Below, one piece after another: positions 35,671-54,858 of a DNA stretch of 64,000 nucleotides. Each line of letters starts with the position of its first letter. Position 1 is the first letter of the stretch. A model generated the notes under the pieces. It had not been told where the DNA came from and ran no database searches. It saw only the letters and a program-made list of their open reading frames with translations. The position numbers were made by a program, and so were the translations under genes. Source of the DNA: Planctomycetota bacterium (GTDB lineage: Bacteria > Planctomycetota > UBA8108 > SXIK01); the NCBI GenBank assembly GCA_965223845.1, contig CBDCXR010000004.1, forward strand, positions 4,128,001 to 4,192,000, in the 5' to 3' direction.

Positions 35671-35902
35671 ATCGATTCTCGTTCGAGTTCGCATCAAAGT
35701 CGGAATCGCCTTCAGATCAGAATCGGTCGGGACGGAAGACCCGATCGGAAGAGCCATTCTGAACGACGAGTTTGCGCTGTGTCCACCCAAGCTCGGCTTT
35801 ATCTGGAGAAGCCCGCATCGCTCGCGTACGATTTTCTACTCCGGCGATCAAAGAACGACGTTCGCCGTGCCTTTGGACCACTACCGGAGAATCCTCAGCC
35901 CC

Positions 35903-36382: not shown

Positions 36383-36402
36383 ACCGACATCGAGCCGTCG
36401 CC

Positions 36403-39400
36403 ATGCGATTCGCTTTTGTCCTCATCGCCTTCGCCTCTTCGTTCGCGAGCCTCCGCGCGCAACCCATCGCGTCGCCGGGCAACCGCTGCACCTATCTCCA
36501 CGATCCGTCGCCGTTCTACGCCGGTCCATCGCTCCCGCGCGTGACCACGCCGATGTGGATCGGCGAAGAGAACGTCGACGCGGCGGTGATCCTCTCGATC
36601 GACGACCTCACGGAGGCTCGCGTCGACCACTACCGTGATTTTCTCGCTCCGATTCTCGCTCGACTAGACGAGATCCAGGGTTACAGCCCCCTCAATATCT
36701 TCACCAACCGCATCGATCCGAGCGATCCGCAGGTCCAGCGCTGGATCGATCAAGGCGTTCGGCTCGACGTCCACACGCGCACTCACCCCTGTCCCTTGAT
36801 GCGCCACGAGATTCCCGCCGCTACGAGCGAGGTGTTCGACTGTCTCTCGAACTTGAACGCCGTGCCGAATCACTTCGCGAATGCGTTTCGGATGCCGTGC
36901 ACGGACTCGATCAACTCGTCGACTCCGCTCTTCTTTCGCGAGATTCTCCCGCAGCGCACGAACGACGGACGATTTCTCGAAGTCGACAGCTCCGTGTCGA
37001 TGTTCCCGGACTCTTCCTACGAAGCCTACGCGCCGTTCCTCAATTACGCCGCGACGATCAGCGAGTATCCGTATCCGTACGTCGTCGGAGGGAACATCTG
37101 GGAGCTCCCGATCGTCGTGCCTACGGACTGGCAGGCACAGCATCGCCGCGGAGTGAATCACCCCCAGACGGTCGCCGAGGTCAAGCGCGCGTTCGACATC
37201 GTGATCGAAGCGAAGGGTCTCTACACGTGGTGCTTTCACCCGCACGGCTGGATCCGCAATACGCAGATCATCGAGGTGATCGACCACGTACGATCCCGCT
37301 ACGGCGCGCGGGTGAAGTTCCTCAATATCCAGGAGACGCTCGAACGACTGACGGAACACATGCTCGGTGGAGTCGCGCTCCGCGACGCCGATGGCTCCGA
37401 TGGCGGCGTCCGCCTCGTCGACATCGATGGCGACGGGAGGATGGACGTCGTCGTCGGAAACGATGCCCGCCGCGAGACGCGGGTTTGGCATTCGGAGTCC
37501 CGCACTTGGCGAACCGTGCCGTTTCCGTTTTCGATCGTCCGCGGACAAGGGTCGGCAAAGCGGGCGACGGGCGTCGAGTTCGGGGTTTTTCGCGCCGACG
37601 GAAAGATCTCGGCTCTGCTCGCGACGAAGAACGGCTCGACCTTCGCACACTTCGACGGGGAGCAGTGGACCCGTCAGCCGGCCCTCGGGCTCGTCGTCGA
37701 CGGAAAGCAGGTCGTCGGCAGAGACGACGGCCGTGACCGCGGGCTCCGCCTACGCGATGTCGACGGCGACGGGTACTCCGATGCGATCGTCAACAACGAC
37801 TCGCAAAACTTGATTTTTCGTTGGAACCCGCGGGAACGCGAATTCGAACGTCTCGCGAGTGTGCTCCCGGCGCTCGCTGCCGTCGTGGACGCCGAGGGAC
37901 GCGACGGCGGACTTCGCTTTTGGGACGTCGATCGAGACGGCGATGACGATCTCGTGCTATCGAACGATCGCGAGTACTTCGTCTATCTCTACGAGGATGC
38001 GACGAAAACCTGGTCGACGCGAGTTCTCCACGGGAGCTCCGGCGCTCCCGGCGCGCTACCGAAGATCACGAGTCGTGGCGAAGACCGCGGCGCTTGGTTC
38101 AAGGACACGACGCTCTACGTCGCCAACACCGCGACGGCCGGTCGGCCGAATCTCGTCGAGACTCGAGACTTCGCACAGCTCCTAGAGCACCGCGCGACTC
38201 CACCCAAGTCGCCCGAGGAGGCGCGCGCAACTCTCCGCGTTCCCGATGGATTCCGAGTCGAGCTCGTCGCCTCGGAGCCTCTCATCGCGGATCCGGTTTC
38301 CGTCGAGTTCGGTGCCGACGGGCGCGTCTGGGTTGCGGAGATGGGCTCGTACCCGCTCGGTCGCGGCGAAGAGGCGGACGGCCGGATCCGCGTTCTCCGC
38401 GATACGGACGGCGACGGCCGTCTCGACCAGAGCACTGTCTTCGCACACGGTCTCAGCTTCCCCGCCGGAGCGCTTCCGTTTCGCGGAGGTGTTCTCGTCA
38501 CGTGCGCGCCGAACATCTACTACTTCGAAGATCGAAACGGCGACGATCGAGCGGACTCGCGCGAGATCATCTTCTCGGGCTTCGGCGAAGGCAACCAGCA
38601 GCACCGGGTCAACGGCCTCCACTACGGAATCGACAACTGGATTTACGGTGCGAACGGCGACAGCGGCGGCACGATCCGCTCGGCGCGTGCCCCCGACCGT
38701 CCCGCGCTTCACCTCGGTGGACGCGACTTCCGCTTTCGCAAAGACCTCACCACCTTCGAAGCCGCGACCGGTCGCACGCAGTTCGGACTCGCGATGGACG
38801 ATTTCGGGCGGCGCTACGGTACGAGCAACTCGCGTCACATCCTCTACGCGGTCCTTCCCGATCGCTATCTCGGTCGAAATCCGCACGTCGCACCACCGAA
38901 CGCCGTCCTCGACATCGCGGAGCACGGCGCCATGGCGCGGATTTATCCGATCTCGAAACAGCTGATCTCGCTCAACTCGATTCACGTTCCGGGTCACTTC
39001 AGCTCTGCGTGCGGAATCTCGATCTACCGCGGCGAGCGATTCCCTCCGTCCTACCGCGGCTCGGCGTTCGTCGCGGATCCCGTCGCGAACCTCGTCCACC
39101 GCGACGTCCTCGTGCCGGACGGAGCCTCGGTGGTTGCACGCCGGAGCGAGAACGAAACGGACTCGGAGTTCCTCGCGTCGACGGACGCCTGGTTTCGCCC
39201 CGTTTACACGACGACCGGACCCGACGGCGCGCTCTACGTGGTCGACATGCACCGCTACATCATCGAGCATCCGGAGTACATCCCGGAGGACTTGCAGCAG
39301 ATTCTCGACTTCGCAGCCGGCCGGGACCGCGGCCGAATCTACCGGGTCGTCTACGCGAGCGCCGATCCGAGATCGGAGGTCGCGCGAATTCCGGTCGCGC

Positions 39401-41553
39401 CATCTCTCGACGCGGAGTCGGATCTCGCCGCGGCGCTCGCGTCCCCGAACGGATGGATCCGCGACACCGCGCAGCGTCTCATCGTTGAACATCGTCCCGC
39501 GGGGATCGCGACCGCGCTGCGCTCGCTCGCTCGCGCGAGCGAGCGAGCGGCGACTCGCATCCACGCGCTCTGGACGCTCGACGCGCTCGGTGCGCTGGAC
39601 GAGTCGATTCTACGGGCCAGCTTCTCCGACCCGAGCGCCGACGTCCGCGAGCACGCCGCGCGGCTCGCCGAATCGCGCATCGATGCGGAACCCGTCTTCA
39701 CCGATGTCGTCGCCCTCACTCGAGATTCGGCGGCGCGCGTTCGCGTGCAGGTCGCGTTCACGCTCGGCGCGTCTTCGCACCCGCTCGCCGGCGTCGCTCT
39801 CGCCGATCTTCTCCGTCGCCACGAGCAGGATCCGTGGCTTCGCGCGGCCGTCTTGAGCTCGAGCCGAACTCACGCCGGCGGGATCCTCGCGGAGCTCGCC
39901 GGGAGCGAAGACGGGCCCTGGACTCTCGAGACGAGCGGCGATCGCGCGGTGTTCAACGCCCTCGTCGCGACCGTGGCGCGCGAGTCGAGCGACGACGCGC
40001 TTCGGCATCTCCTCGCTCGGCTCGATCCGGGCGACGTTCGCCGCGGACATTTCTCGCTCCTCGGCACGCTCGCGACCGCCGCCGGAGCACGACTCGAGAG
40101 AATCGCGAGCGCGAATGCGGACGTGAGCGCCGCCATCGCCGGAACGCGGCGAGCGGCGCGCGAGAAGGCCATCGATCCCTCGGCCGCCCTCGCGCTCCGG
40201 GTCGAAGCGGTCCGAGCGCTCGGCGGAGAGGCTGCCGATCTCGTCGTACTCGAAGCGCTCGTCGCGCCACGAACGCCGAGCGATCTCCAGATCGAAGCTC
40301 TCCGGCTAGTCAAGTCGGCGTCCGAAGACCGTCGCGCCACCGCGGCCGAGTTCCTTCTCGCGCGGTGGGATGCGCTCGGTCCGCGGATCCGCGGTGAAAC
40401 GCTCGAGCTGCTCGTCTCCACTCCGAGCGGGGCCGACCGAATCGCGGCGGCGATCGACGCGCAGCGACTCGATCCCCGCCACGTGAGCTCACCGCTTCGC
40501 TCCCGTTTGCGCGCGAGCGCCTCGCCGGAAGTGCGCGCTCGCCTCGCACGTGCATTCGCGCCGCCGCGAGCATCGTCCCCCGAAGCACACGCGGAGTATC
40601 GCGCGCAAGTTCGCTCTCTCCGCGGAGAAGCGGAGAGCGGGCGCGCGGTGTTCGAAGAGCACTGCTCGAACTGCCATCGTCTCGACGGCCTCGGCTTCGA
40701 CGTCGGTCCGCGGATCGAAGACGCCGCCGTCAAAGGAATCGAGAGCGTCCTCGAAGCGATCTTGGCACCGGCCGAATTCGTCCCGCCGCGCTACACGCCC
40801 TACATTGTCGAGAGTTCCAGCGGACAGGTCGCCACGGGTCTCATCGCAGAAGAGACCGCGACGAGCGTCCGGCTCGTCCGTCCGGGCGGCGTCACCGAAA
40901 CGATCCTCCGGAGCGATCTCGAATCACTCACCGCCGACGAAGGTTCGCTGATGCCATCCGATCTCGCGGCAGCGATCTCGCCGCAGGCGATGGCGGATCT
41001 TCTCGCCTTCGTCGCGCAGCGACCCGCGAACCTCGACGCACTCGACCCGGAGGCGACTCGGGCCGCGAGTGCGATCGTCGAGGCGAACGCTCACAACGGC
41101 CTCGCGGAGGTGCTCGAGGCGACGGAGATCGCGGATCAGGCGAGCTGGGTCGGTCGCATTCGGATGTCGCTCGCACGCCAGCTCGACGGGAAGCACGCCG
41201 TCGCGTGGAAAACGGATGTGGTCCCCGACTCGCTCGAATCTGCGACGTACTCGTTTCACTTGCCGGTCGCGATGGGCTACGTCAGCCAGCCGAGCGGATC
41301 CTTCACCCTCCACGTCGGCGAGCGGCGTGTGCTCGAATTCAACGTCACGCTCGAAAGCGCGACGTGGAAGTCGCCCGGAGGCGCCGCGCGACTCGACTAC
41401 TCAGTCCGTGCGCGAAACAGCGAAGATTCGACCGGGATCTTGACCGTCACCGTGCCGATCGGTTGGCTCGAACCGGGCTCCCCCGCGACGCTCCGCGTCA
41501 CCGGATCCAGCACGGGGAGCCGCCGCTGGTTCGGCGTGCTGCCGCTCCGCTGA
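36403..41553 (+). CDS. Multidomain secreted protein: polysaccharide-deacetylase-like, FG-GAP repeats, PVC-type beta-propeller dehydrogenase, HEAT repeats, cytochrome c
   Basis: LSIDD, HTRTHP, FRMPC, FHPH; DIDGDG repeats; VPDGFRVELVASEP..GNQQHRVNG..WFRPV..GPDGALY; HEAT-like helices; CSNCH. Confidence 0.85.
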   Translation: MRFAFVLIAFASSFASLRAQPIASPGNRCTYLHDPSPFYAGPSLPRVTTPMWIGEENVDAAVILSIDDLTEARVDHYRDFLAPILARLDEIQGYSPLNIFTNRIDPSDPQVQRWIDQGVRLDVHTRTHPCPLMRHEIPAATSEVFDCLSNLNAVPNHFANAFRMPCTDSINSSTPLFFREILPQRTNDGRFLEVDSSVSMFPDSSYEAYAPFLNYAATISEYPYPYVVGGNIWELPIVVPTDWQAQHRRGVNHPQTVAEVKRAFDIVIEAKGLYTWCFHPHGWIRNTQIIEVIDHVRSRYGARVKFLNIQETLERLTEHMLGGVALRDADGSDGGVRLVDIDGDGRMDVVVGNDARRETRVWHSESRTWRTVPFPFSIVRGQGSAKRATGVEFGVFRADGKISALLATKNGSTFAHFDGEQWTRQPALGLVVDGKQVVGRDDGRDRGLRLRDVDGDGYSDAIVNNDSQNLIFRWNPREREFERLASVLPALAAVVDAEGRDGGLRFWDVDRDGDDDLVLSNDREYFVYLYEDATKTWSTRVLHGSSGAPGALPKITSRGEDRGAWFKDTTLYVANTATAGRPNLVETRDFAQLLEHRATPPKSPEEARATLRVPDGFRVELVASEPLIADPVSVEFGADGRVWVAEMGSYPLGRGEEADGRIRVLRDTDGDGRLDQSTVFAHGLSFPAGALPFRGGVLVTCAPNIYYFEDRNGDDRADSREIIFSGFGEGNQQHRVNGLHYGIDNWIYGANGDSGGTIRSARAPDRPALHLGGRDFRFRKDLTTFEAATGRTQFGLAMDDFGRRYGTSNSRHILYAVLPDRYLGRNPHVAPPNAVLDIAEHGAMARIYPISKQLISLNSIHVPGHFSSACGISIYRGERFPPSYRGSAFVADPVANLVHRDVLVPDGASVVARRSENETDSEFLASTDAWFRPVYTTTGPDGALYVVDMHRYIIEHPEYIPEDLQQILDFAAGRDRGRIYRVVYASADPRSEVARIPVAPSLDAESDLAAALASPNGWIRDTAQRLIVEHRPAGIATALRSLARASERAATRIHALWTLDALGALDESILRASFSDPSADVREHAARLAESRIDAEPVFTDVVALTRDSAARVRVQVAFTLGASSHPLAGVALADLLRRHEQDPWLRAAVLSSSRTHAGGILAELAGSEDGPWTLETSGDRAVFNALVATVARESSDDALRHLLARLDPGDVRRGHFSLLGTLATAAGARLERIASANADVSAAIAGTRRAAREKAIDPSAALALRVEAVRALGGEAADLVVLEALVAPRTPSDLQIEALRLVKSASEDRRATAAEFLLARWDALGPRIRGETLELLVSTPSGADRIAAAIDAQRLDPRHVSSPLRSRLRASASPEVRARLARAFAPPRASSPEAHAEYRAQVRSLRGEAESGRAVFEEHCSNCHRLDGLGFDVGPRIEDAAVKGIESVLEAILAPAEFVPPRYTPYIVESSSGQVATGLIAEETATSVRLVRPGGVTETILRSDLESLTADEGSLMPSDLAAAISPQAMADLLAFVAQRPANLDALDPEATRAASAIVEANAHNGLAEVLEATEIADQASWVGRIRMSLARQLDGKHAVAWKTDVVPDSLESATYSFHLPVAMGYVSQPSGSFTLHVGERRVLEFNVTLESATWKSPGGAARLDYSVRARNSEDSTGILTVTVPIGWLEPGSPATLRVTGSSTGSRRWFGVLPLR

Positions 41554-41668: not shown

Positions 41669-42322
41669 CTAGGAGTCGAGGAACGTCAGCCCCTCACGCA
41701 CAGCGAACTTCGTGAGCTCGGGGAGGCTGTCGATCTGAAGCCGCTCCATGATGTGTTGGCGGTGCGTCTCGACGGTCTTCACGCTGATGTCGAGCACCAG
41801 GGCGATCTGCTTCGTCGTCTTCCCTTCGGCGAGGAGCTGGAGTACTTCGCGCTGACGATCGGTCAGTCCGGCGCCGGCCGTGGCGAACCGCGCCGCCAGC
41901 TTCTCGACGTACGCCTCAGCCCCATCTTCCGTGATGAGCGGACTCAGATAGATTCGACCCGAGAGAACGGTCGCGATGGCCTCGGCAAGCTCTTCGATGG
42001 CGCATTCCTTGAGGACATACCCGCGCGCCCCCGCCTCCATCATGCGATGGATCATCCGCTCTTCGGCATGCATCGAGAGGGCGATGATCTTGACGTGTTC
42101 GCAGGCGCCTCGGATCTGCGTCGTCGCCTCGACGCCGTTGAGGCCCTTCATGGCGACGTCCATGATGGCGACGTCGGGCGAGAGCCTACCTGTCAATTCG
42201 ACGGCCGTACGGCCGTCGGCAGCTTCGCCGACGATAGCGTACTCGTCGCGATCCTCGAACCAGCTCTTCAGCCCGTCGCGAACAATTGCATGGTCATCCA
42301 CCAGCAGGACTCGAGTCGTCAC
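41669..42322 (-). CDS. NarL/FixJ-family response regulator (REC plus LuxR HTH)
   Basis: LLVDDH, IMD phosphoacceptor, GYVLK, LTDRQREVLQLLAEGKTTKQIA..KTVETHR. Confidence 0.95.
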   Translation of the reverse strand: MTTRVLLVDDHAIVRDGLKSWFEDRDEYAIVGEAADGRTAVELTGRLSPDVAIMDVAMKGLNGVEATTQIRGACEHVKIIALSMHAEERMIHRMMEAGARGYVLKECAIEELAEAIATVLSGRIYLSPLITEDGAEAYVEKLAARFATAGAGLTDRQREVLQLLAEGKTTKQIALVLDISVKTVETHRQHIMERLQIDSLPELTKFAVREGLTFLDS

Positions 42323-42762
42323 TGCGCCGCTCCGTCATCTCTCGGTGGCTCTCCATCACGGATCCGCGCGATCTCGTGCCCACGCGAAGAGCACGCCGAT
42401 TATAGGCGACTGGTCCGTTATTTGCAGAGCGAATCGGAGTCGGCGCACCCCATCGATTTCCCGAACAACAACATCGCCGGCGGGCGTTCGGCGCTGTTCT
42501 CTCCGCCCTCTCTCGGCGGTTAGGCGACGGCCGCTCGAAGTCCCAACCCACGGCCTCGCGGACGACATCGCGAAGCGGACCAACGGAGATTCTGGACGAA
42601 TCGTCGATGATTCGCGACCGAGAAGCCGGCCGAAAGGATCGCCCGTGGTCCGCACCGACGGCCGATCCCGGCGACTTGGACAGGCTCCCATCCCGAGTTC
42701 CTGACGTACGATGTACGTCCTATCGTTCCCCTCGTAGACAAGACTCAAGCGAACGAAACGTC

Positions 42763-43218
42763 ATGCGACTCCCCGATTCCAGCTCAGACCAAAATGGCGT
42801 ACCCGCCGCGTCGCGGCCCGATTCCGAATCGGATCCCGGGAAGCTCGACCAAGTCCGGGACATCCTCCTCGGTCCGCTGATCGACTCGGTCGAGCGCCGA
42901 TTCGACCGTCTCGAAGATGGGATCTCTGAGCTACGGCGCGAAGCGGAAGCCCGGGCGAACGCGATCGAGATGGAGCTGCGCCGCGCCGTCGAGGAGCTGA
43001 GCGAACGCGCAAAGCGGGACGACGCGGATCTCGGCGATCGTCTGACTGCGCTCGGGAGAACGGTCGAGGAGAACCTGAACGCACTCCGAAGCGATCTCGC
43101 GCGTGATTGCGAGAAGATCCGCGCGGCTAAGGTCGATCGAGCTTCCCTCGGGACGCTTCTCCAGCGGGTCGCGGAAGAGGTCGCCCGCGCGGAGGAGCCA
43201 GAGGGTGGAGCGGAATGA
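42763..43218 (+). CDS. Coiled-coil hypothetical protein, first gene of the GTPase operon
   Basis: LDQVRDILLG then heptad-rich helix ending KVDRASLGTLL. Confidence 0.7.
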   Translation: MRLPDSSSDQNGVPAASRPDSESDPGKLDQVRDILLGPLIDSVERRFDRLEDGISELRREAEARANAIEMELRRAVEELSERAKRDDADLGDRLTALGRTVEENLNALRSDLARDCEKIRAAKVDRASLGTLLQRVAEEVARAEEPEGGAE

Positions 43219-43228
43219 GGACGACACC

Positions 43229-45598
43229 GTGAAACCGCTCCAGCCGAAACGACCGACCTCCCCGCGCGCCGAGGGCTCCACGCCGCCGCCGCGCGGCGTC
43301 GACTCGGGCGCGCGTGGGTCGACGCCGGACGCTCGCGGGTCCGCGGAGACGGACGCCGCGTTCGAGCAACTGAGAGAGCTCCTAGCTCCCGACGAACGCC
43401 CGCTCGAAGCCGAAGAGGTCAGCCGCGTTCTCCCCGAAGCCGTCCACCTCCGATCGAAGCGCGATGCGAAGTTGAATCGCGCGCTGACGCCGACGATCGA
43501 GGAGGCGATTCAAGCGTCCGTTCGACGCGATCCGCAGCAGATCGCGACGGCGATCTACCCGGCGCTCGGTCCGGCGATTCGGAAATCGATCACCGAGACA
43601 CTCGCCGGGATGATTCAGTCGCTCAACGAGGCACTCGAGCACAGCGTGAGCCCGCAAGGCATCCGCTGGCGCATCGAGGCGTGGCGAACCGGGCGCCCGT
43701 TCGCCGAAGTCGTGCTGCTCCACACTCTCGTCTATCGCGTCGAGCAGATCTTTTGGATCGAGAGGGCGAGCGGCGTCCTCCTTCAGCACCTCGTCGCTCC
43801 TTCCGTACGCGCGCAGAGCGGCGATCTCGTCTCGGGAATGCTGTCGGCGATCCAGAAGTTCATCGAGGATTCCTTCGACGTCGAGCAAGGCGACACGCTT
43901 CAGTCGCTTCGCGTCGGCGATCTCACGGTGTGGGTCGACGGTGGCTCCCAAACCGTTCTCGCGACGGTGATCCGAGGCAATCCACCGCTCTCGTTTCGAA
44001 GCAAGACCACGGCGACGCTCGAAACCCTCGAAATCGAGCACGGTGCCGCACTCGCGGAGTTCGACGGCGACACCTCGAGCTTCGAAGTCTCGCGCCACGA
44101 GCTGGCGGCGTGTCTCGAGGAGCAGAAGCAGGTCGGCGCCACCGCGAAGAAGGGAAAGATGAAATACGCGCTCGCGCTCATCGCGATCGTCGTCTTGCCG
44201 TTTCTTCTCTGGGGTTTCTTCTCCTGGCGCGAATCCGGACGCTGGTCAGAGCTCCTCGCCGCACTCGATCGAGAGCCGGGGATCCTCGTCACCGAAAGCG
44301 GAAGCGAAGACGGATCACGCTCCATCGCCGGACTCCGCGACCCGCTCGCGCGCGACCCAGCCGAGCTCGCGGCGGCCGTCGGGCTCGATCCGGATGAGAT
44401 TCACTGGCGGTGGATCGATCACGCCGCGAAGGAGTTCGACGAGACGCGCATCCGCGCGGCGCTCGAGTTGCCCCCCTCGGTCGAGATCTCGATCGTCGAC
44501 GGAGCCGTCACCGGCAGCGGCTCGGCGACATCGGACTGGATTCGCGCGGCGCGCGACCGCGCACTCGCCGCCGGCGCACTCAGCGTCGACTTGAGCGGAG
44601 TCGCGGAAAGCGACGCTCACGCGCGCACTCTCGCGCGAGCGCGAAACGTGCTCGATCCTCCCGCGTCGGTCGACTTGCAACTCCGAGAGAACACGCTCGT
44701 TCTCGCCGGACGCGCGCCCGAAGCATGGATCGCCGAAGCGAGCATTCTCGCGCGCGCGATCGACGGCGTCGGCGCGATCGACGCGACGGGGGTCGAGCCG
44801 GCCGATCGCGCCGAACGCATCCTCGCGCGCGTTCACACCGTGCTCCAGCCTCCCCCGAGTGTCACGCTCACGCTCGAGGGTGACGTCGTCGTGGCGTCGG
44901 GTGAGGCCGAGGACGCCTGGATCGAACGGGCGCCGTGGCTCGCGCGTTCGATCGAGGGCGTCAGGTCGTTTCGCGGCGAACGGTTGAGGAGCACCGACCG
45001 CAGCTCGCGCGTCGTGCGCGAGGCTCGACTCGCGCTGCGCGCACCCGCGAGCGTGACGCTCTCGTTCTCCGGGGGCGTCCTCTTCGCTCGTGGTCGCGCC
45101 GCGCACCAATGGATTCTCGAGAGCCGGCGTCTCGCGCCCTTCGTTGCACGGGTCGAGAGTTACGACGATGGTGCTCTCATCGACATCGACGCCGAGGAGT
45201 TCGCCGCGATCAAAGCCGCCATCGAATCGGTGGAGATCTACTTCGAGGCGAACACGATCCGCCTCGCCGAGGGAAGCGAAGCAGGGATTCCGGCGGTCGC
45301 CGCGCGCATCGCGGAGATCGTGCCCGCGGCGGAACGCCTCGCGCTCGAGTTCGAGATCGCCGTCATCGGCCATCTCGACAACGTGGACCAGCGCCCCGTG
45401 CGATCGGAGCTCAGCCGCGCCCGGGCGGCGAAGGTGATCGATCTCCTCGTCGAGACGGGTGTCCCGCGCGATCGGCTGAATCTGCTCGACGCCGGCGCGC
45501 GCCACGCGGCTTCGGCGGACGCCGACGCGAGTCGGCGACGACGGGTTTCTTTCGAGGTGTCGACGCGTGGAGCGACGGGCGACGCATCCCGGCCATGA
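43229..45598 (+). CDS. Single-TM protein: helical and longin-like cytoplasmic region, four BON-like repeats, C-terminal OmpA-like domain
   Basis: GAGG then GTG 43229; TM YALALIAIVVLPFLLWGFFSW; repeated LxP(P/A)xSVxL..GxAxxxWI; IYFE..IGHLD..LSRARA..RRVSF. Confidence 0.75.
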   Translation: MKPLQPKRPTSPRAEGSTPPPRGVDSGARGSTPDARGSAETDAAFEQLRELLAPDERPLEAEEVSRVLPEAVHLRSKRDAKLNRALTPTIEEAIQASVRRDPQQIATAIYPALGPAIRKSITETLAGMIQSLNEALEHSVSPQGIRWRIEAWRTGRPFAEVVLLHTLVYRVEQIFWIERASGVLLQHLVAPSVRAQSGDLVSGMLSAIQKFIEDSFDVEQGDTLQSLRVGDLTVWVDGGSQTVLATVIRGNPPLSFRSKTTATLETLEIEHGAALAEFDGDTSSFEVSRHELAACLEEQKQVGATAKKGKMKYALALIAIVVLPFLLWGFFSWRESGRWSELLAALDREPGILVTESGSEDGSRSIAGLRDPLARDPAELAAAVGLDPDEIHWRWIDHAAKEFDETRIRAALELPPSVEISIVDGAVTGSGSATSDWIRAARDRALAAGALSVDLSGVAESDAHARTLARARNVLDPPASVDLQLRENTLVLAGRAPEAWIAEASILARAIDGVGAIDATGVEPADRAERILARVHTVLQPPPSVTLTLEGDVVVASGEAEDAWIERAPWLARSIEGVRSFRGERLRSTDRSSRVVREARLALRAPASVTLSFSGGVLFARGRAAHQWILESRRLAPFVARVESYDDGALIDIDAEEFAAIKAAIESVEIYFEANTIRLAEGSEAGIPAVAARIAEIVPAAERLALEFEIAVIGHLDNVDQRPVRSELSRARAAKVIDLLVETGVPRDRLNLLDAGARHAASADADASRRRRVSFEVSTRGATGDASRP

Positions 45599-46095
45599 TC
45601 AAGAAGAAGATCTGCATGCTCGGGGCCTTCGCCGTCGGCAAGACGAGCCTCGTCAGCCGGTACGTGGAGAGCCTGTTTTCCGAAGACTACCTGACGACGG
45701 TCGGCGTCAAGGTCGATACGCGCCTTCTCGTAGTCCGCGGCATGGAGGTCCAGCTCGTCATTTGGGACATCGCCGGTGAAGATGACGTTCACCAGATCAA
45801 CCTCGCTTACCTGCGCGGAGCGAGCGGATACCTCGTCGTCGTCGACGGTACCCGCCCCGAGACGGTCGATGTCGCGCTCGAAATCCTCGAGCGGTCCGCC
45901 GACACGGTGGGTGCGCTCCCCCACATCGTGTGCGTGAACAAGAGCGATCTCGACGATGACTGGGCGATCGATCGCGACTCGCTCGCAGCAAAAGGCGTCG
46001 AGGACTTCGTTCGCGTGAGCGCGAAGACGGGCGAGGGCGTCGAGAGAGCGTTCGAACGTCTCGCGGAGCTCATGATCGAAGGGATGAGGTCGTGA
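45595..46095 (+). CDS. Rab-like small GTPase (prokaryotic Rup-type)
   Basis: G1 GAFAVGKTS, G2 YLTTVG, G3 WDIAGE, G4 NKSD, G5 SAK; 166 aa; ATGA-coupled to the upstream gene. Confidence 0.92.
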   Translation: MIKKKICMLGAFAVGKTSLVSRYVESLFSEDYLTTVGVKVDTRLLVVRGMEVQLVIWDIAGEDDVHQINLAYLRGASGYLVVVDGTRPETVDVALEILERSADTVGALPHIVCVNKSDLDDDWAIDRDSLAAKGVEDFVRVSAKTGEGVERAFERLAELMIEGMRS

Positions 46096-47273
46096 TCCAG
46101 TCGCACGAACCCCTCGCTCAGTTTCTCTCGCACCTCGCGGAACGTGATCGCTCGGTCGTCTACCTCCGCACCGATCGCGAAGGACGTCTCCGCGAGAAGC
46201 GAGGAGACGTCGAGCGGTACGGTCTCGCCGATCTCGAGGTCGGCACACCGGTTCAGTCGCGAGTCGCCGCGCTCCTCGGCTCCGTTCCGCTCGGCGGCGA
46301 GCCCGGGTGCCTGCCGCTCGTCGAGCTTCACCCCGGAGCGATCGTCGACATCCATCTGGTCCCGGATGTGCGAGACGACTGGATCGTCCTCATCGACTCG
46401 TCCACGGAGGCGCAGCGCCGGCGCGCGATCCAGCAGGAGCAGCACGACCTCGCGCTCGCGCGCGCGAAGCTGCGCCGACTCTCCGCGGAGCTCGATTCGC
46501 GCTCGGTCGACGAGGTCGGCGCCGGGTCGGACGCGCGTTCGCCGGGGCGAGAGTTCGATCGCGAAAGTGGAAGCGCGCCAGTGGAGAGCCCGGACGATTC
46601 CGACTCCGAGCTCCTCGCGTACGAACGCCGTCTCCGGCGCCTCGCGCTCGACCTCGCTCGAGCCGAGGAGGCGGAGCGACGGCGAATCGCGGTCGGTCTC
46701 CACGACGACGTCGGTCAGCTTCTCGCGGCGACGCGGATGAAGGTGTCGCTCCTCCGGGAACGCGCGTCCGAGGAGCGAGTGCGGTCTCTCGCCGAGGAGG
46801 TCGCGGATCTACTCTCGAGTGTCATCCGGCACACCCGCAGTCTCACGTTCGAACTCGGCTCGCCACTCGTTCGGGACGCCGGTCTTCGAGCTGGGCTGGC
46901 GAAGCTGGCCGCAGATGTGGACGAGCGCGGCCCGTTCTCCGTGACGTTCCATGCTCCCGGGGAGATCCCCGAACCGACCGAAGAGATCCGAATCCTCGTC
47001 TACCAGGCCGTCCGCGAGCTACTGTTCAACGCGACGAAACACTCGGAAGCGCGCCGCGCTGCGGTCGAGGTTGCCGTAAGCGCGGGGACGATCGAAATCT
47101 GTGTGAGAGACGACGGCGTCGGCTTTCGTCCTTCCCGCCTCGAGAACCGCGACACCCGCGGGTTCGGCCTCACATATCTCCGTGAACGGCTCGACGAGCT
47201 GAACATCGATTTCTCGGTCCGTTCGGCTCCCGGCGAAGGCACGCGCGCTCGTCTTCGGATACCGACCGACTGA
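46092..47273 (+). CDS. Soluble sensor histidine kinase (HisKA_3, NarX/DegS-like)
   Basis: ERRRIAVGLHDDVGQ H-box, ELLFNATKHS N-box, DDGVGF, GFGL; no clear TM. Confidence 0.9.
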   Translation: MIQSHEPLAQFLSHLAERDRSVVYLRTDREGRLREKRGDVERYGLADLEVGTPVQSRVAALLGSVPLGGEPGCLPLVELHPGAIVDIHLVPDVRDDWIVLIDSSTEAQRRRAIQQEQHDLALARAKLRRLSAELDSRSVDEVGAGSDARSPGREFDRESGSAPVESPDDSDSELLAYERRLRRLALDLARAEEAERRRIAVGLHDDVGQLLAATRMKVSLLRERASEERVRSLAEEVADLLSSVIRHTRSLTFELGSPLVRDAGLRAGLAKLAADVDERGPFSVTFHAPGEIPEPTEEIRILVYQAVRELLFNATKHSEARRAAVEVAVSAGTIEICVRDDGVGFRPSRLENRDTRGFGLTYLRERLDELNIDFSVRSAPGEGTRARLRIPTD

Positions 47274-51502: not shown

Positions 51503-51862
51503 ATGACGGCACCCGTTCGAGCTCGGATCTATCACAATCCACGCTGCAGCAAGAGCCGAGGAGCGCTCCTGCTCCTCGAGGAGCGCGGCGTCGACGTCGA
51601 GGTCGTGCGGTACCTCGAGCACCCGCCGGAGGTCGGTGAGCTGCGCGAGATCTGCGCTCGAATCGGCCTGTCGCCTCGGGATCTCGTGCGCAGAAAGGAG
51701 CCCCGTTTCGGCGAGCTCGGACTCGATTCGCGCGACCTCAGCGACGAGGAATGGCTCGAAACCTTGGCGGCGAATCCCGTCCTCATCGAGCGTCCTCTCG
51801 TCCTCATCGGGAGGCGCGGGGTCATCAGGCGCCCACCGGAGAACGTCCTTTCTATTCTCTGA
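51503..51862 (+). CDS. arsC: ArsC-family (glutaredoxin-type) arsenate reductase
   Basis: IYHNPRCSKSR and NPVLIERP motifs. Confidence 0.8.
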   Translation: MTAPVRARIYHNPRCSKSRGALLLLEERGVDVEVVRYLEHPPEVGELREICARIGLSPRDLVRRKEPRFGELGLDSRDLSDEEWLETLAANPVLIERPLVLIGRRGVIRRPPENVLSIL

Positions 51863-51968
51863 GGCCGGCGGACGGGGCGGGTCGCGCGTCGCGGGCAACC
51901 GCTAACTCATTTTCTTCAAAAGAGTTAACGCCGATCCACCGCGCGCTCTCGAGCCTTCGCGGCGCTCA

Positions 51969-52011
51969 CGTTGCTGCCGGCGACCCGGCGGCCGGATCGC
52001 CGGCAGCAACG
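51969..52011. repeat. Perfect 15-bp inverted repeat (strong hairpin)
   Basis: CGTTGCTGCCGGCGA ... TCGCCGGCAGCAACG with an inner CCGG/CCGG; no U-tract. Confidence 0.7.
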
Positions 52012-52275
52012 AATGCGAAAACCCTGACGGCGAATTGGATTAGATTCGCGCGTGGATGCGTCTTTCATCGGCGTGGGCGTCGCTCGTGCCCGCGGGAAGT
52101 TCTTTCCTCACGCCGAGTTCGCGACGAGAATCGGCTTCGGCTGAGCAGTCGTCCGCCGGTCCAATCTCTCGAGATTGTGAAGTCGCGGCGGCGTACCGTC
52201 TCGATCGGATGTGTCGTAGGAAGGTGTCGTAGAAAGAACGTTCAGCCAATTCACACGCGTCATTGGGGGATATCG

Positions 52276-54858
52276 ATGTTTACGCGTAGCCCTGGGGCTC
52301 TCCGGATCGCCGTAGCGATCCTCGTCACCGTCTCGTCGGGATTCGTCTCGTCCACCTGGGCGATCGAGCCGATCGTTTACGTTTCGCGTTCGTTCGAAAG
52401 CGTACCGCAGGCCGACAGGAGGGCGAGCGCGGTCGAGCGCGCCACCGACGGCATTTTGTACATCAAGCGAGACGGCGAGCAGCCGGTCGTCCTCGTCAAC
52501 GAGGATTCTGAACCGGTGACGGGAACAGCTCCGCTCGACGTCTCCGACCCGAGCGTCTCCTACGACGCGCAGCGCATCGTCTTCGCTGGCTATTCGCCCG
52601 TCGAAGAGGCGTGGCGAATCTACGAAGTCGGCGTGGACGGAAGCGGGCTCCGCCAGCTCACGACGAGCGATCGAGAAGAGATCGACCTCACTCGTTACGG
52701 TGAGGAGCTCGGCGGTGAGTTCGCGACCTACGACGACCTCGATCCGTGCTACCTCCCCGACGGAAGAATCTGCTTCGTCTCGACCCGCTACCCCGGGAGC
52801 GCACCGGGCGGACGTGTTCGCGCGACGAATCTATACGTAGCGAACGCCGATGGAACAGACGTCCACCGAATCACTACCGAACGATTCGGCGCCGACACGC
52901 CCGCGGTCGATCCGATGACGGGGCAGATCGTCTACTCCCGCTGGTGGCTCACGGAAGAGGGGAACGCGCCCCCGACCGGAGGACTCAGTCCGACGAGCGC
53001 TCCGCCCTACTACGGCCCGGTCACGAATACCGCACTCAGCACGATTCCGCTGCGCGGTCTCGCGGACCCCGACTTCGTCGGCGTGAACAATTGGTCGCTC
53101 TCCTCGGTGAACCCTGACGGGACCGGCCTCCAGCAGTTCAGTGGATCGGGACTGTTGAGCGAGCTGACGATGGCGTACCGGCCGGCGTTCTTCGAGGACG
53201 GACGCGTCACCGGTCTCTTCATTCGCCAGAGTCCGTTCCTCGGCTACCCGGGATCGCACGGAATCCGGATGTACTCGCGCGGCATCGGCTACCCGGAAGC
53301 GGTCGCCGGTCCTCAGTCGTTCTTCGGGAGCGCGGTCCCGGCCGACCCGAATCCCCTCGTATTCGCCTCGTTCACCGAGCCGAGATTCGCGTACGGCAGC
53401 GCGGAGCCGCTCGCCGACGGAAACCTCCTCGTTACCGGTCACCCGTGGGGAAACGGCGATGGCAGCCCGGCGGACTTCGACGTCTACGTTCAAACCAGGA
53501 GGAGCAACTCTCCAGTCGGCGCCCCCCTCGTCAACTCGAACCGGATGTTGCTCGATGCGGTTCCGGTTTACCCGAGAGATGTGCCTCCGATCATCGAGGA
53601 CGAGTTCCGGCCCGAGTTCCGCGAGGATGTACCGCAGACCGTCGAAGAGGCGATCGCGATGCACGGCACGTTCAAGTTCGTGTGCGAGAACATCCACACG
53701 AACGGAGCCGTCGACTTGGCGATTCCGAACGCTCCGCCGGTCGGACAAAATCTCACGATCGAGTTCTACATGCATCCGCAGGGTGACAGCGACGCGCCGA
53801 ATCCGATCCTCATCGAAAGCCAGGAGATCGGTCCCGACGGTCGCGTCGAGATGGAGCTTCCGGCGGGAGTACCGCTGTTCGAGGTTCTCCGACGAACGGA
53901 CGGTCGCATTGCGCTCGGACGCGACGGCCAGGTGTTTCATGTCGGCGGGATGAATTTCGGCAACGCGGGGACCGAAGCGAAGTGCGTCGGCTGCCACGCC
54001 GGTCACAGCCGCCTCGAAGTTCCCGCCGATCCGAGCTGGACGAACATCGCTTCGAGTGCGACGGTCACGGCGAGTTCCGTCTTGAGCGGTCGCGTGCCCG
54101 GCACGCGATTCTTCGCGGTGTTCAGCCCGGCCTCACTCGTCGACCGAAAGACGCTACCGATCGCGTCGGAGTGGGCGGCACAGCCGTTTGAAAACGACGC
54201 AGAGCCGTGGTTCCGCCTCAGGTGGCAGCGTCCCGTCGAAGCGAAGGAGCTCGTTCTCTACGGGATTCAGACCGGGTCCACCCGCGACTTCGGCCGCCGC
54301 ACGACGACGGTGAACTCCTTCGACGTCGAGCTGCTTCTCGACGGCGAGAGGGTCGACGCGTGGCGTGAGAACCAAAAGATCCAGCCCGCACCCGAAGGGA
54401 CTCGAATTCAGTTCGAGGCACTCCGGACGATCGACGAAGTCGTGATCCGCTTCGGGAGAGAATCCGTTACCGGCGAGCTACTCGATATGAGTGTCGCGGC
54501 CGCGTCCGAGATCGAGGTCGTCGGACGCGCGCTTTCCGTCGACGGGCCGGCGACCGCGATCTTCGTCCGCGGCGATGCGAACTGCGATGGGTTCGCCAAT
54601 CTGAGCGACGGGATCTCGATGCTGAACGCGCTCTTCCTCGGGGGACCGATGGCTCCGAGCGGCAACTCGGCGCCGCTGTGCTGCGTCGCGGCCGGGGATG
54701 TGAACGACGATGATTCGCTCAACATGACCGACATCATCTACTTCCTCAATCACCTCTTCCGCGGAGGACCGGGACTCGCCCCACCGGAGCGCGAGTGTGG
54801 GCGCGCAGAGATGCGATCGCTCACCTGCGACCAAGAATCCGCCTGTCCGCCGCTTTGA
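52276..54858 (+). CDS. Secreted protein with hydrazine-synthase-alpha-like propeller/middle region, CxxCH, discoidin-like and dockerin-like domains
   Basis: GGGGA RBS; DPSVSYD..RIVF..GLRQLT, DDLDPCYLPDGRICFVSTR, LPAGVPL, CVGCH, FVRGDANCDG..DVNDD. Confidence 0.7.
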   Translation: MFTRSPGALRIAVAILVTVSSGFVSSTWAIEPIVYVSRSFESVPQADRRASAVERATDGILYIKRDGEQPVVLVNEDSEPVTGTAPLDVSDPSVSYDAQRIVFAGYSPVEEAWRIYEVGVDGSGLRQLTTSDREEIDLTRYGEELGGEFATYDDLDPCYLPDGRICFVSTRYPGSAPGGRVRATNLYVANADGTDVHRITTERFGADTPAVDPMTGQIVYSRWWLTEEGNAPPTGGLSPTSAPPYYGPVTNTALSTIPLRGLADPDFVGVNNWSLSSVNPDGTGLQQFSGSGLLSELTMAYRPAFFEDGRVTGLFIRQSPFLGYPGSHGIRMYSRGIGYPEAVAGPQSFFGSAVPADPNPLVFASFTEPRFAYGSAEPLADGNLLVTGHPWGNGDGSPADFDVYVQTRRSNSPVGAPLVNSNRMLLDAVPVYPRDVPPIIEDEFRPEFREDVPQTVEEAIAMHGTFKFVCENIHTNGAVDLAIPNAPPVGQNLTIEFYMHPQGDSDAPNPILIESQEIGPDGRVEMELPAGVPLFEVLRRTDGRIALGRDGQVFHVGGMNFGNAGTEAKCVGCHAGHSRLEVPADPSWTNIASSATVTASSVLSGRVPGTRFFAVFSPASLVDRKTLPIASEWAAQPFENDAEPWFRLRWQRPVEAKELVLYGIQTGSTRDFGRRTTTVNSFDVELLLDGERVDAWRENQKIQPAPEGTRIQFEALRTIDEVVIRFGRESVTGELLDMSVAAASEIEVVGRALSVDGPATAIFVRGDANCDGFANLSDGISMLNALFLGGPMAPSGNSAPLCCVAAGDVNDDDSLNMTDIIYFLNHLFRGGPGLAPPERECGRAEMRSLTCDQESACPPL

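What the first reader, a model, noticed from the sequence alone, without database searches (positions are those of the whole stretch)
41669..47273. Envelope-anchored Rab-like GTPase module linked to a two-component system
Seen: four co-oriented genes (10-nt gap, then ATGA and GTGA overlaps) encode a coiled-coil protein, a single-TM BON-like/OmpA-like protein, a 166-aa GTPase with all five G motifs and a soluble HisKA_3 kinase. A NarL-type regulator, the class that pairs with HisKA_3 kinases, lies divergently. No MglB-like gene is present. Known: prokaryotic non-MglA Ras-superfamily GTPases (Rup family) have been noted near two-component genes, but to my knowledge their function is not established. 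Inference: the TM protein senses the cell wall and controls the GTPase, which gates the kinase and regulator.
Basis: partly seen in the sequence, partly recalled or inferred. Interest (0 to 1): 0.88.

Follow-up and report, generated by a model that had tools for sequence, protein, structure and literature searches.

The report
Bacterial Rab-like GTPase signalling module
This is a real, widely conserved bacterial gene cluster that couples a Rab-like GTPase and a membrane protein anchored to the cell wall to a histidine kinase and its regulator; the cluster type was predicted by computer in 2014 but nobody has yet shown what it does.

Summary
In detail: the genes, junctions, G motifs and domains are as described. 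The module is not new. It matches all five context features of the "Group 1 Rup" neighbourhood that Wuichet & Søgaard-Andersen predicted in 2014 (PMC4316618, passages read). These are a coiled-coil protein, an unknown domain + TM + OmpA protein, a Ras-like GTPase lacking the G3 glutamine, and an output protein whose N-terminal region carries an invariant Gln. Gene order is conserved. Of 80 related loci from many phyla, 69 have the GTPase directly downstream and 77 have the coiled-coil gene upstream. A NarL-type regulator is adjacent in 4 of 4 relatives that carry the module.

Three things are added here:
- The membrane protein's "unknown" cytoplasmic domain is predicted to have a Roadblock/longin fold. 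"No MglB-like" therefore holds at the gene and Pfam level only.
- The kinase's N-terminal domain is PAS-like, with an invariant QQ, and is fused elsewhere to cyclases, HD-GYP, sigma-54 activators and other kinases.
- The extracytoplasmic part is variable.

The mechanism remains inferred. I found no experimental work.

The parts
41669..42322 (-). NarL/FixJ-type response regulator (receiver + GerE/LuxR HTH), divergent from the operon. It is the likely cognate regulator of the HisKA_3 kinase.
   Evidence: Pfam Response_reg 7.5e-29 and GerE 1.4e-19. DD 9-10, D55, S83 and K105 were read from the sequence. A 54-56% identical regulator is adjacent to the module in 4 of 4 relatives.
42607..43218 (+). 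Cytoplasmic coiled-coil protein. The conserved core starts near aa 79 (motif VRDILLGP at aa 83-90). An alternative start at M53 (42763) is possible.
   Evidence: No Pfam family above cut-off. A homologue lies directly upstream of the TM gene in 77 of 80 loci by iterated HMM and in 65 of 80 by tblastn.
43229..45598 (+). MotB-like bitopic membrane protein. It has a cytoplasmic conserved region, one TM helix, four ~64-aa BON-like repeats and a C-terminal OmpA-like peptidoglycan-binding domain.
   Evidence: The N-domain is about 50% identical across phyla (2406 hits at E<=1e-5 among 8000 candidates scored).
43700..44056 (+). Predicted Roadblock/longin-fold core (aa 158-276 of the TM protein; alpha-beta-beta-alpha-beta-beta-beta-alpha). 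It is preceded by a conserved helical region (aa 58-157) holding the motifs YPALGPAIRK (110-119) and RWRIEAWRTG (146-155).
   Evidence: AF2 model on 44 sequences: mean pLDDT 75.7, core blocks 80-96. Foldseek against PDB: Mon1-Ccz1 1e-4, AP-1 sigma 6e-4, MglB 2e-3, LAMTOR, and Sec22b longin with TM 0.76.
44168..44224 (+). Single transmembrane helix (aa 314-332), with a Lys-rich stretch on the N-terminal (cytoplasmic) side.
   Evidence: Kyte-Doolittle 19-residue maximum 2.45; sequence.
44453..45223 (+). Four tandem ~64-aa periplasmic repeats (P[PA]SV motif at aa 415, 478, 542 and 606), BON-like.
   Evidence: Motif spacing. Weak BON hit at aa 529-579, E 0.004, below cut-off. BON is significant in 4 of 44 relatives.
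45305..45544 (+). OmpA-like peptidoglycan-binding domain (aa 693-772; GHLD 714-717, LSRARA 728-733).
   Evidence: Pfam OmpA 3.9e-8, above cut-off. The family profile matches solved OmpA-like domains down to 2e-13.
45595..46095 (+). Rab-like small GTPase (Group 1 Rup type). It has all the G motifs, but G3 is DIAGE (Glu in place of the catalytic Gln) and Phe sits at the Ras Gly12 position. It has no C-terminal lipidation tail.
   Evidence: Pfam Ras 5.1e-28. The family profile best matches Rab23 (1e-39) and Rab1. At the G3 position, 48 of 74 have E and only 3 of 74 have Q; 54 of 74 have F at position 12.
46092..46505 (+). N-terminal PAS-like input domain of the kinase (aa 1-103; the last strand ends in LIDSS, which aligns with the family's LLDAT). 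It is followed by a long signalling helix (aa 104-138) carrying the invariant QQ (aa 114-115, 46431-46436).
   Evidence: AF2 model, pLDDT 86.2. Foldseek gives weak PAS hits (FlrB PAS 2e-3, TM 0.5-0.65). Q114/Q115 are invariant in 28 of 28. Q115 is invariant and Q114 at least 90% in 100. The family has 1042 representatives at E<=1e-3.
46674..47267 (+). HisKA_3 dimerisation/phosphoacceptor domain (aa 195-255, His204 in GLHDD) and HATPase_c (aa 301-392; N box FNATKH 312-317, DDGVGF 340-345, GFGLTY 357-362). It is joined to the input domain by an acidic low-complexity linker (aa 136-190).
   Evidence: Pfam; motif positions.

Best explanation
This is a Group 1 Rup ("Rup1") signalling module: a five-gene unit built round a Rab-like GTPase.

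Shown by sequence and comparison:
- A coiled-coil protein, a MotB-like membrane protein, the GTPase and a soluble HisKA_3 kinase form one tightly packed, co-oriented set whose order is conserved across phyla.
- A NarL-type regulator travels with the HisKA_3 variant.

Predicted from models:
- The membrane protein holds a Roadblock/longin-fold domain in the cytoplasm, just inside the membrane.
- The kinase starts with a PAS-like domain. Its exit helix carries an invariant QQ, and in other genomes the domain is fused to many different signalling outputs.

Inferred mechanism:
- The membrane protein is fixed to peptidoglycan by its OmpA-like end and carries BON-like repeats in the periplasm.
- It uses its Roadblock/longin domain as a platform that sets the nucleotide state of the GTPase, as MglB, Ragulator and Mon1-Ccz1 do for their GTPases.
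- The GTPase has Glu for the catalytic Gln and Phe at the Gly12 position, so it cannot switch off efficiently on its own.
- The GTPase then binds the PAS-like domain of the kinase.
- That binding shifts the kinase/phosphatase balance through the signalling helix, and so shifts phosphorylation of the NarL-type regulator and transcription.
- The coiled-coil protein is an obligate accessory, either a scaffold or a co-regulator.

My confidence that this is a Rup1 module is about 0.9. My confidence in the stated order of events is about 0.45.
For: Identity:
- All five context features listed in PMC4316618 (passages read) are met.
- The junctions are a 10-nt gap and ATGA/GTGA overlaps.

Conservation:
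- Among the best 80, the GTPase lies downstream on the same strand in 69, elsewhere in the locus in 5, and was not found in 6. Four of those 6 have less than 2300 nt of contig left.
- A coiled-coil homologue lies upstream in 77 of 80.
- The regulator is adjacent in 4 of 4 relatives with the module and in L069, the other HisKA_3 case.

Roadblock/longin fold:
- The AF2 core has high confidence.
- All of the top Foldseek hits belong to the longin/Roadblock class, many of them from GTPase regulators.

Modular input domain:
- Domain A lies directly downstream of the GTPase in 27 of 69 loci, a second companion domain B in 33 of 69, and either one in 52 of 69.
- In 100 representatives, domain A is N-terminal to HisKA kinases (27), class III cyclases (22), sigma-54 activators (4), SpoIIE/PP2C (4), HisKA_3 (3) and HD-GYP (1).

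Impaired GTPase: 48 of 74 have Glu and only 3 of 74 have Gln at G3.

Competence: the kinase and regulator keep their catalytic motifs.
Against: - No interaction, nucleotide effect or phosphotransfer was measured or validly predicted here.
- The Roadblock/longin call rests on one AF2 model (pTM 0.51; the helical region before the core has pLDDT 51-69).
- The Foldseek E-values are modest (1e-4 to 1e-2).
- There is no sequence-level link: 0 of 44 members match Robl_LC7 or any Pfam family there, and the PDB profile search found only OmpA-like chains.
- PAS, GAF, Roadblock and longin are similar alpha/beta sandwiches.
- The PAS-like call for the kinase domain is weak (best E 2e-3), and LAMTOR5 Roadblock chains also appear.
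- The QQ lies in a helix that in PAS kinases usually forms a dimeric coiled coil. Its conservation may therefore be structural.
- The extracytoplasmic part is absent in two Dehalococcoidia loci, so wall sensing cannot be the universal input.
- 17 of 69 loci have neither companion domain downstream. Several of these are at contig ends; others encode PP2C or amidohydrolase proteins.
- Co-transcription is untested.
Confidence: 0.6

Rival explanations
1. The flow is reversed. The kinase's N-terminal domain is the GAP of the GTPase and supplies the missing catalytic glutamine in trans from its invariant QQ, as Wuichet & Søgaard-Andersen suggested. On this view the two-component or other "output" protein is an input or timer that switches the GTPase off. 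The GTPase's real effector would then be the coiled-coil protein or the envelope protein.
For: Group 1 Rup GTPases lack the G3 Gln (3 of 74 have Q). Q115 is invariant in 100 of 100 and Q114 in at least 90%. The idea is stated in PMC4316618 (passage read). The coiled-coil and membrane proteins are more constant partners (77 of 80) than any one output type.
Against: The QQ sits about 11 residues into a long helix leaving a PAS-like sheet. That is the usual place of a dimeric signalling helix, not of a catalytic finger loop. Fusion of one N-terminal domain to many enzymatic outputs is the hallmark of an input domain that controls the output. Being a GAP and being an effector are not exclusive.
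Confidence: 0.2
2. The module is mainly a spatial device, like MglA/MglB. The peptidoglycan-anchored membrane protein marks a site in the envelope, and the GTPase cycle recruits or releases the kinase and the coiled-coil protein there. The OmpA-like end is an anchor and no periplasmic signal is sensed.
For: The topology is MotB-like, with a peptidoglycan-binding end. The extracytoplasmic part varies from 0 to about 476 residues after the N-domain while the cytoplasmic domain stays about 50% identical. Roadblock/longin domains act as localisation platforms for GTPases in the hit structures (this last point is from my knowledge of those systems).
Against: The constant pairing with transcriptional and second-messenger outputs fits signal transduction better than pure localisation. 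Nothing here bears on localisation.
Confidence: 0.12
3. The genes are neighbours without a shared function, or the cluster is an anti-phage defence island.
For: There are only weak PADLOC matches to generic parts: the regulator's HTH to a CARF-HTH model (1.6e-9) and the coiled coil to LmuB (1e-4).
Against: Order is conserved across phyla. There are no PADLOC matches for the GTPase, the membrane protein or the kinase. The flanking genes are unrelated housekeeping or degradative genes.
Confidence: 0.03

Closest known systems
Group 1 Rup (Rup1) gene neighbourhood, predicted by Wuichet & Søgaard-Andersen, Genome Biol Evol 2014 (PMC4316618)
   Same: The four components are the same: a coiled-coil protein, a conserved unknown domain + TM helix + OmpA, a Ras-like GTPase without the G3 Gln, and an output protein (a histidine kinase is one of the two named types) with an N-terminal region holding an invariant Gln. 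All were checked here.
   Different: The paper left both conserved domains unassigned. Here they are predicted to be Roadblock/longin-like and PAS-like.

The paper names GGDEF/EAL or kinase outputs. Here the kinase is the rarer HisKA_3 type (3 of 100 representatives) with a NarL regulator, and the range of outputs seen is wider (cyclases, HD-GYP, sigma-54 activators, PP2C, Hpt hybrids). No GGDEF or EAL family is among the 24 families or the 25 of 32 families shown.

The window's membrane protein has four periplasmic repeats and is about 200 aa longer than typical members.
Actinobacterial conservon (CvnA histidine kinase, CvnB Roadblock/MglB-like, CvnC, CvnD GTPase)
   Same: It works like it in composition: a small GTPase, a Roadblock-fold partner, a histidine kinase and a small accessory protein in one operon. 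The 2014 paper itself draws the analogy.
   Different: The conservon GTPase belongs to the MglA family, the Roadblock protein is a separate soluble gene, the kinase is the membrane component, and no response regulator is included (PMC4316618 passages). Here the GTPase is Rab-like with a G3 Asp, the Roadblock-like domain is fused to the membrane anchor, the kinase is soluble, and a regulator is present.
MglA/MglB of Myxococcus xanthus and Thermus
   Same: A small Ras-superfamily GTPase is paired with a Roadblock-fold regulator. MglB chains are among the fold hits (3t12_C 2e-3, 3t1s, 1j3w).
   Different: According to PMC4316618, MglA lacks the G3 Asp, while this GTPase has D58. MglB is a free-standing Pfam Robl_LC7 protein, while here no Pfam match exists. 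The genome has a separate Robl_LC7 pair with a weak GTPase hit 3.3 Mb away.
Eukaryotic longin-domain Rab GEFs (Mon1-Ccz1/Ypt7, Fuzzy-Inturned/Rab23) and Ragulator/Rag
   Same: The best fold hits of the cytoplasmic domain are Mon1-Ccz1 chains (1e-4). The Fuzzy-Inturned/Rab23 and LAMTOR/Rag complexes are also listed. The GTPase profile's best solved relatives are Rab23 and Rab1.
   Different: There is no sequence similarity. It is a single domain fused to a bacterial membrane anchor, not a tri-longin heterodimer. GEF activity is untested, and common descent is not shown.
MotB / Pal / YiaD type OmpA-like peptidoglycan anchors
   Same: There is a C-terminal OmpA-like domain above the Pfam cut-off. 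The topology is N-in with a single TM helix, as in MotB.
   Different: There is no MotA partner. The cytoplasmic part is a large conserved domain rather than a short tail. BON-like repeats are inserted.

Membership tests
Group 1 Rup system (PMC4316618) | Small single-domain Ras-superfamily GTPase with eukaryote-like G1-G5 motifs (G3 Asp present, unlike MglA) | tested here: met
   PF00071 5.1e-28. The G1-G5 motifs were located and D58 is present in 73 of 74 aligned sequences, the other being a gap. The best solved relatives are Rabs.
Group 1 Rup system (PMC4316618) | Catalytic Gln of G3 absent | tested here: met
   The window has DIAGE. In the family, 48 of 74 have E and 3 of 74 have Q.
Group 1 Rup system (PMC4316618) | Neighbouring gene for a cytoplasmic coiled-coil protein | tested here: met
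   42607-43218: helical, with no hydrophobic segment. A homologue lies upstream in 77 of 80 loci.
Group 1 Rup system (PMC4316618) | [quoted passage not shown] | tested here: met
   OmpA was found in 39 of 44 aligned family members.
Group 1 Rup system (PMC4316618) | Signal-output protein whose N-terminal region has an invariant Gln | tested here: met
   Q114/Q115 are invariant in 28 of 28. Q115 is invariant in 100 of 100. I cannot confirm that the paper's logo shows the same Gln, because the figure and supplements were not available.
Group 1 Rup system (PMC4316618) | Placement inside the Group 1 clade in a tree with the paper's reference sequences | not tested
The only evidence is 42-56% identity to GTPases that share the same gene context.
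MglA/MglB | GTPase of MglA type (G3 without Asp) with a stand-alone Robl_LC7 MglB gene next to it | tested here: not met
   D58 is present. There is no Robl_LC7 match in the window, and the genome's two matches lie at C4:7.53 Mb.
Roadblock/longin fold superfamily | alpha-beta-beta-alpha-beta-beta-beta(-alpha) sandwich with significant structural similarity to solved members | tested here: inconclusive
   The predicted model has the right topology. All of the top Foldseek hits are of this class, but only 3 have E<=1e-3. It is a prediction only, with no sequence-profile support.
HisKA_3/NarL two-component pair | Kinase with a HisKA_3 H box and an intact ATPase; regulator with a receiver Asp pocket and a GerE HTH; the two genes adjacent | tested here: met
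   Pfam; motifs; adjacency conserved in 4 of 4 relatives. Phosphotransfer cannot be tested with these tools.
OmpA-like peptidoglycan-binding domain | Pfam PF00691 above the gathering score | tested here: met
   34 bits against a cut-off of 27.2. That the GHLD Asp and the LSRARA Arg are the diaminopimelate-binding residues is my recollection, not a test.

The most novel reading that the evidence does not exclude
The conserved cytoplasmic domain of the membrane protein is a genuine bacterial Roadblock/longin-type exchange factor (or GAP platform) for a Rab-like GTPase, tethered to the inner membrane. Bacteria would then already pair a membrane-bound longin/Roadblock regulator with the GTPase lineage closest to eukaryotic Rab/Ras/Rho/Ran. 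This would be a prokaryotic counterpart, and possibly an ancestor-like state, of Mon1-Ccz1/Rab7 and Fuzzy-Inturned/Rab23. It would be used here to carry an envelope signal into two-component, cyclic-nucleotide and sigma-54 outputs.
Probability: 0.3. Interest if true: 0.8.

Novelty: new member of a known kind. Interest (0 to 1): 0.5.

Why it matters
Rup1 GTPases are the bacterial proteins that group most closely with eukaryotic Rab/Ras/Rho/Ran. This is stated in PMC4316618 and in the Asgard Arf preprint 10.1101/2024.02.28.582541 (passages read). In the searchable literature I found no experiment on what they do.

The family is large: at least 572 species genomes, more than 2400 protein clusters of the membrane partner, and 1042 representative clusters of the input domain. 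A mechanism would therefore open a whole class of bacterial signalling.

This window offers one of the simplest read-outs, a soluble kinase plus one DNA-binding regulator. The fold predictions also turn a vague model into three testable pairwise interactions:
- the Roadblock-like domain with the GTPase,
- the GTPase with the PAS-like domain,
- the QQ helix with hydrolysis.

As a discovery of the module itself, however, the finding is a rediscovery.

Tried and rejected
**Complex prediction.** I sent three protein chains plus GTP: the cytoplasmic domain (A1, residues 14-262), the kinase N-domain (A3), and the GTPase (A4) as partner.
- The verdict was "no answer". The scores were 0.84, 0.82 and 0.82.
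- The controls with the partner replaced scored 0.00 and 0.00. The control with chain 1 replaced scored 0.80, so the mark of 0.20 above every control was missed.

**Homology between companion domains A and B.** hhalign gave probability 3.7% and E 0.011. This is not significant and I make no claim, although the alignment is collinear.

**Word-based search with the kinase N-terminus.** It found only the window's own protein. The family was reached instead through neighbourhoods and the profile search.

**Protein atlas for the cytoplasmic domain.** It returned only unnamed "hypothetical protein" clusters, with scores of 0.91-0.94.

**Sequence-profile search of PDB with A1.** It returned only OmpA-like chains and nothing for the N-domain.

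**Expression.** No RNA holder was listed, and read laying was not used. Co-transcription is therefore untested.

**Promoter and terminator scan.** It found 0 promoter-like sites and 1 terminator-like hairpin, fewer than in shuffles. This is uninformative in a 65% GC genome.

**Defence reading.** PADLOC gave only generic weak hits.

**Taxon.** The organism's taxon was not established. A Planctomycete-like gene content is my inference and from the names of the nearest homologues.

**Supplements.** Those of PMC4316618 (table S2, with locus lists) could not be seen. They may already list close relatives of this locus or the wider range of outputs.

**Rows dropped**
- A1 used the window plus 43 of the 120 listed hits, picked at intervals.
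- A2 used 59 of the 69 downstream ORFs. Ten had no ORF or an ORF under about 145 aa and were left out: L030, L034, L041, L044, L046, L048, L049, L060, L065 and L075.
- A4 used 66 of the 73 GTPase matches. L020, L058 and L065 were left out from the first. L019 was removed after the stop-codon error, and L044, L034 and L054 were removed with it as a precaution.
- A5 used the 100 of the best 150 representatives that are at least 250 aa long.
- The group B alignment used 22 of the 23 clustered members; L083, which is N-terminally truncated, was left out.

Full report
**What is there.** The window is about 65% GC. ORF listing and translation give five genes in 41669-47273.
- A regulator on the minus strand, 41669-42322, 217 aa.
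- A 203-aa protein on the plus strand, 42607-43218.
- A 789-aa protein, 43229-45598.
- A 166-aa protein, 45595-46095.
- A 393-aa protein, 46092-47273.

I read the junctions directly. The stop at 43216-43218 is followed by ten bases and GTG at 43229. There is an ATGA overlap at 45595-45598 and a GTGA overlap at 46092-46095.

Pfam gives the following:
- Response_reg + GerE for the regulator.
- Nothing above cut-off for the 203-aa protein.
- OmpA (34 bits against a cut-off of 27.2) and a sub-threshold BON hit for the 789-aa protein.
- Ras family (5.1e-28) for the 166-aa protein.
- HisKA_3 + HATPase_c for the last protein.

NCBIfam agrees and adds no specific name. The 789-aa protein has one hydrophobic helix (aa 314-332) and the kinase has none. 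The flanking genes are unrelated: a 1924-aa DUF7133/FG-GAP protein, DUF885 on the other strand, a sulfatase and DUF1570.

**It is a published kind of module.** Wuichet & Søgaard-Andersen 2014 (PMC4316618; I read passages of the sections on Rup classification, catalytic mechanism and links to signal transduction) describe "Group 1 Rup" GTPases.
- They have eukaryote-like G motifs but lack the G3 glutamine.
- They are encoded with three conserved neighbours. The first is a cytoplasmic coiled-coil protein. [quoted passage not shown] The third is a signal output protein, typically GGDEF/EAL or a histidine kinase.
- The output protein's N-terminal region has an invariant glutamine, which they speculate could be supplied in trans.
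- They state that no Rup protein had been characterised experimentally.

Every one of these features is present here (see the membership test). I ran six full-text searches. They found only that paper and later phylogenetic uses of "Rup1" as a reference group (10.1101/2024.02.28.582541, passages read). I saw no experimental study. The library lacks most subscription journals, so this is not proof of absence.

**Conservation.** The cytoplasmic part of the membrane protein (aa 40-350) finds 2406 proteins at E<=1e-5 among 8000 scored. The best are about 50% identical, typically about 585 aa long, and named only "OmpA family".

Of these, 572 were confirmed, and I examined the best 80. They come from Acidobacteriota, Cyanobacteria, Nitrospira, Desulfobacterota, Gemmatimonadota, Chloroflexota, Verrucomicrobiota, Gamma- and Zetaproteobacteria and others.

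In those 80:
- The GTPase lies downstream on the same strand in 69.
- It lies elsewhere in the locus in 5.
- It was not found in 6, of which four have less than 2300 nt of contig left.

The coiled-coil gene lies upstream in 65 of 80 by tblastn and in 77 of 80 by an iterated HMM. Among 41 genomes related to the window's genome, the GTPase was found in 5, including the window's own, so the distribution is patchy. All four other carriers have the membrane protein, the GTPase, a HisKA_3 kinase and a regulator 54-56% identical to the window's. The regulator's position varies. The Verrucomicrobial HisKA_3 locus L069 also has such a regulator directly downstream.

**The GTPase.** In 74 aligned sequences, G1, G4 and G5 are near-invariant and the G3 Asp is kept. 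The residue after DxxG is Glu in 48, Ala in 9, Thr in 4, Gln in 3 and Leu in 3. The Ras Gly12 position is Phe in 54. From general knowledge of Ras-family enzymes, both features argue for poor intrinsic hydrolysis and a non-Ras type of GAP. The family profile best matches solved Rab23 (1e-39), Rab1 and a Thorarchaeota Rab. There is no C-terminal Cys tail.

**The membrane protein.** An AF2 model of aa 45-352, built on 44 sequences, has mean pLDDT 75.7. It shows a helical region, then helix-strand-strand-helix-strand-strand-strand-helix (model residues 114-232, which are protein aa 158-276; the blocks over the strands and helices score 80-96, the connecting loop 53-66). A long helix that includes the membrane segment follows.

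Foldseek against PDB returns only longin/Roadblock-class chains at the top:
- Mon1-Ccz1 with Ypt7 (about 1e-4, two chains)
- AP-1 sigma (6e-4)
- MglB with MglA (2e-3)
- LAMTOR/Ragulator, Rag C-terminal domains and FLCN-FNIP
- Sec22b longin (TM 0.76 on the target, rmsd 3.2)
- Fuzzy-Inturned with Rab23

Only three hits are below 1e-3, and there is no sequence-level support. I rate the fold as likely rather than established.

The two most conserved motifs, YPALGPAIRK and RWRIEAWRTG, lie just before the core in a region modelled with low confidence.

Outside the membrane there are four ~64-aa repeats and the OmpA-like domain. Typical relatives have a shorter region. Two Dehalococcoidia loci end right after the membrane helix. 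The constant part is therefore the membrane-tethered cytoplasmic domain.

**The kinase input.** The first ~135 residues find relatives directly downstream of the GTPase in 28 of 69 loci. The aligned set has invariant G38, G63, L74, W97, Q114, Q115 and L122.

The AF2 model (pLDDT 86.2) is a five-stranded sheet with a long exit helix. Foldseek gives weak PAS-domain hits (FlrB, VC2136, phytochromes, WalK; best 2e-3) and some LAMTOR5 chains. The last strand ends in LLDAT (LIDSS in the window). I recognise this from memory as the position of the D-x-T motif of PAS kinases. The QQ lies about 11 residues into the helix.

A profile search of 1.84 billion representatives finds 1042 members at E<=1e-3 and 749 at 1e-10, almost always at the N-terminus. 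Of the 100 that are at least 250 aa long, the Pfam tallies are:
- HATPase_c 33
- HisKA 27
- class III cyclase 22
- sigma-54 activator 4
- SpoIIE 4
- HisKA_3 3
- HD-GYP 1

A second companion domain, B, of about 170 aa and ending in a QKAR-type helix, is found in 33 of 69 loci. Domains A and B occur together in 8, and either one occurs in 52. Relatives G003 and G007 have A + B + HisKA_3, and G025 and G021 have B + HisKA_3. The window has A followed by an acidic low-complexity linker. One N-terminal domain fused to many outputs is the signature of an input domain.

**How it most likely works.** The following is shown by sequence and comparison:
- The components, their order and their co-inheritance.
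- An impaired catalytic site in the GTPase.
- Intact kinase and regulator motifs.

The two folds are predicted. The following chain of events is inferred:
- The membrane protein, held to peptidoglycan, controls the nucleotide state of the GTPase through its Roadblock/longin domain.
- The GTPase binds the PAS-like domain and changes kinase output.
- The NarL-type regulator changes transcription.

The main rival is the 2014 idea that the QQ domain is the GAP. The two roles are not exclusive. A localisation-only reading and a defence reading are less likely.

**What could not be settled.** The single complex job gave "no answer" and counts for nothing. No RNA run was listed. The paper's supplements were closed.

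**Verdict.** This is a real and well-conserved member of a known but experimentally untouched kind. The remaining interest lies in the open function of Rup1 systems and in the fold assignments made here.

Noticed in passing
G000:C4:7528700-7530478 (outside the window; locus L002): The same genome has a separate MglA/MglB-like locus. Two Robl_LC7 (PF03259) matches (1.3e-10 and 8.1e-7) flank a weak small-GTPase match (30% identity to the window's GTPase).
   Followed up: partly
L087 9186-11060, L088 4297-6177 (-), L089 8489-9940, L090 8773-10080; also 33 of 69 related loci: A second conserved companion domain, B, of about 170 aa and ending in a QKAR-type helix, occurs in Rup1 output proteins. 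It can stand alone, lie in tandem after domain A, or sit in a second gene after an A-only protein. The window's kinase lacks it and has an acidic low-complexity linker (aa 136-190, 46497-46661) in its place.
   Followed up: partly
L068 6400-7284 and L080 1026-1910 (Dehalococcoidia MAGs): Here the Roadblock-domain protein ends right after its membrane helix, with no extracytoplasmic region and no OmpA domain. From memory, this class lacks a peptidoglycan wall, which would fit.
   Followed up: partly
window 42853-42876 (coiled-coil protein aa 83-90) and the N-terminus of the membrane protein (about 43361-43450): Both proteins carry a similar N-terminal helix motif. It reads I-R-d-I-L-F-G-x-Q in the coiled-coil family and E-L-R-x-L-L-x-G-P-E in the membrane-protein family. 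This hints at a shared binding site or an old duplication.
   Followed up: no
window 44453-45223: The window's membrane protein has four tandem ~64-aa periplasmic repeats, whereas the typical ~585-aa relative appears to have about one. Its extracytoplasmic part is among the longest of the 80 loci.
   Followed up: partly
window 35779-41553 (+): A 1924-aa ORF with DUF7133 (1.1e-140) and FG-GAP repeats lies directly upstream of the regulator. Together with sulfatases, a sulfatase-modifying-enzyme fusion, DUF1570 and DUF885 nearby, the gene content looks Planctomycete-like. This is an inference, and the taxon is not established.
   Followed up: no
window 51751-54858 (+): A 1035-aa ORF has no Pfam family at E<=1e-5.
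   Followed up: no
L029, L067, L079 (Gemmatimonadota) and L024, L039: In these loci the gene after the GTPase encodes a PP2C-type phosphatase without domain A or B. In L024 and L039 it is a secreted amidohydrolase, which is probably outside the module.
   Followed up: no
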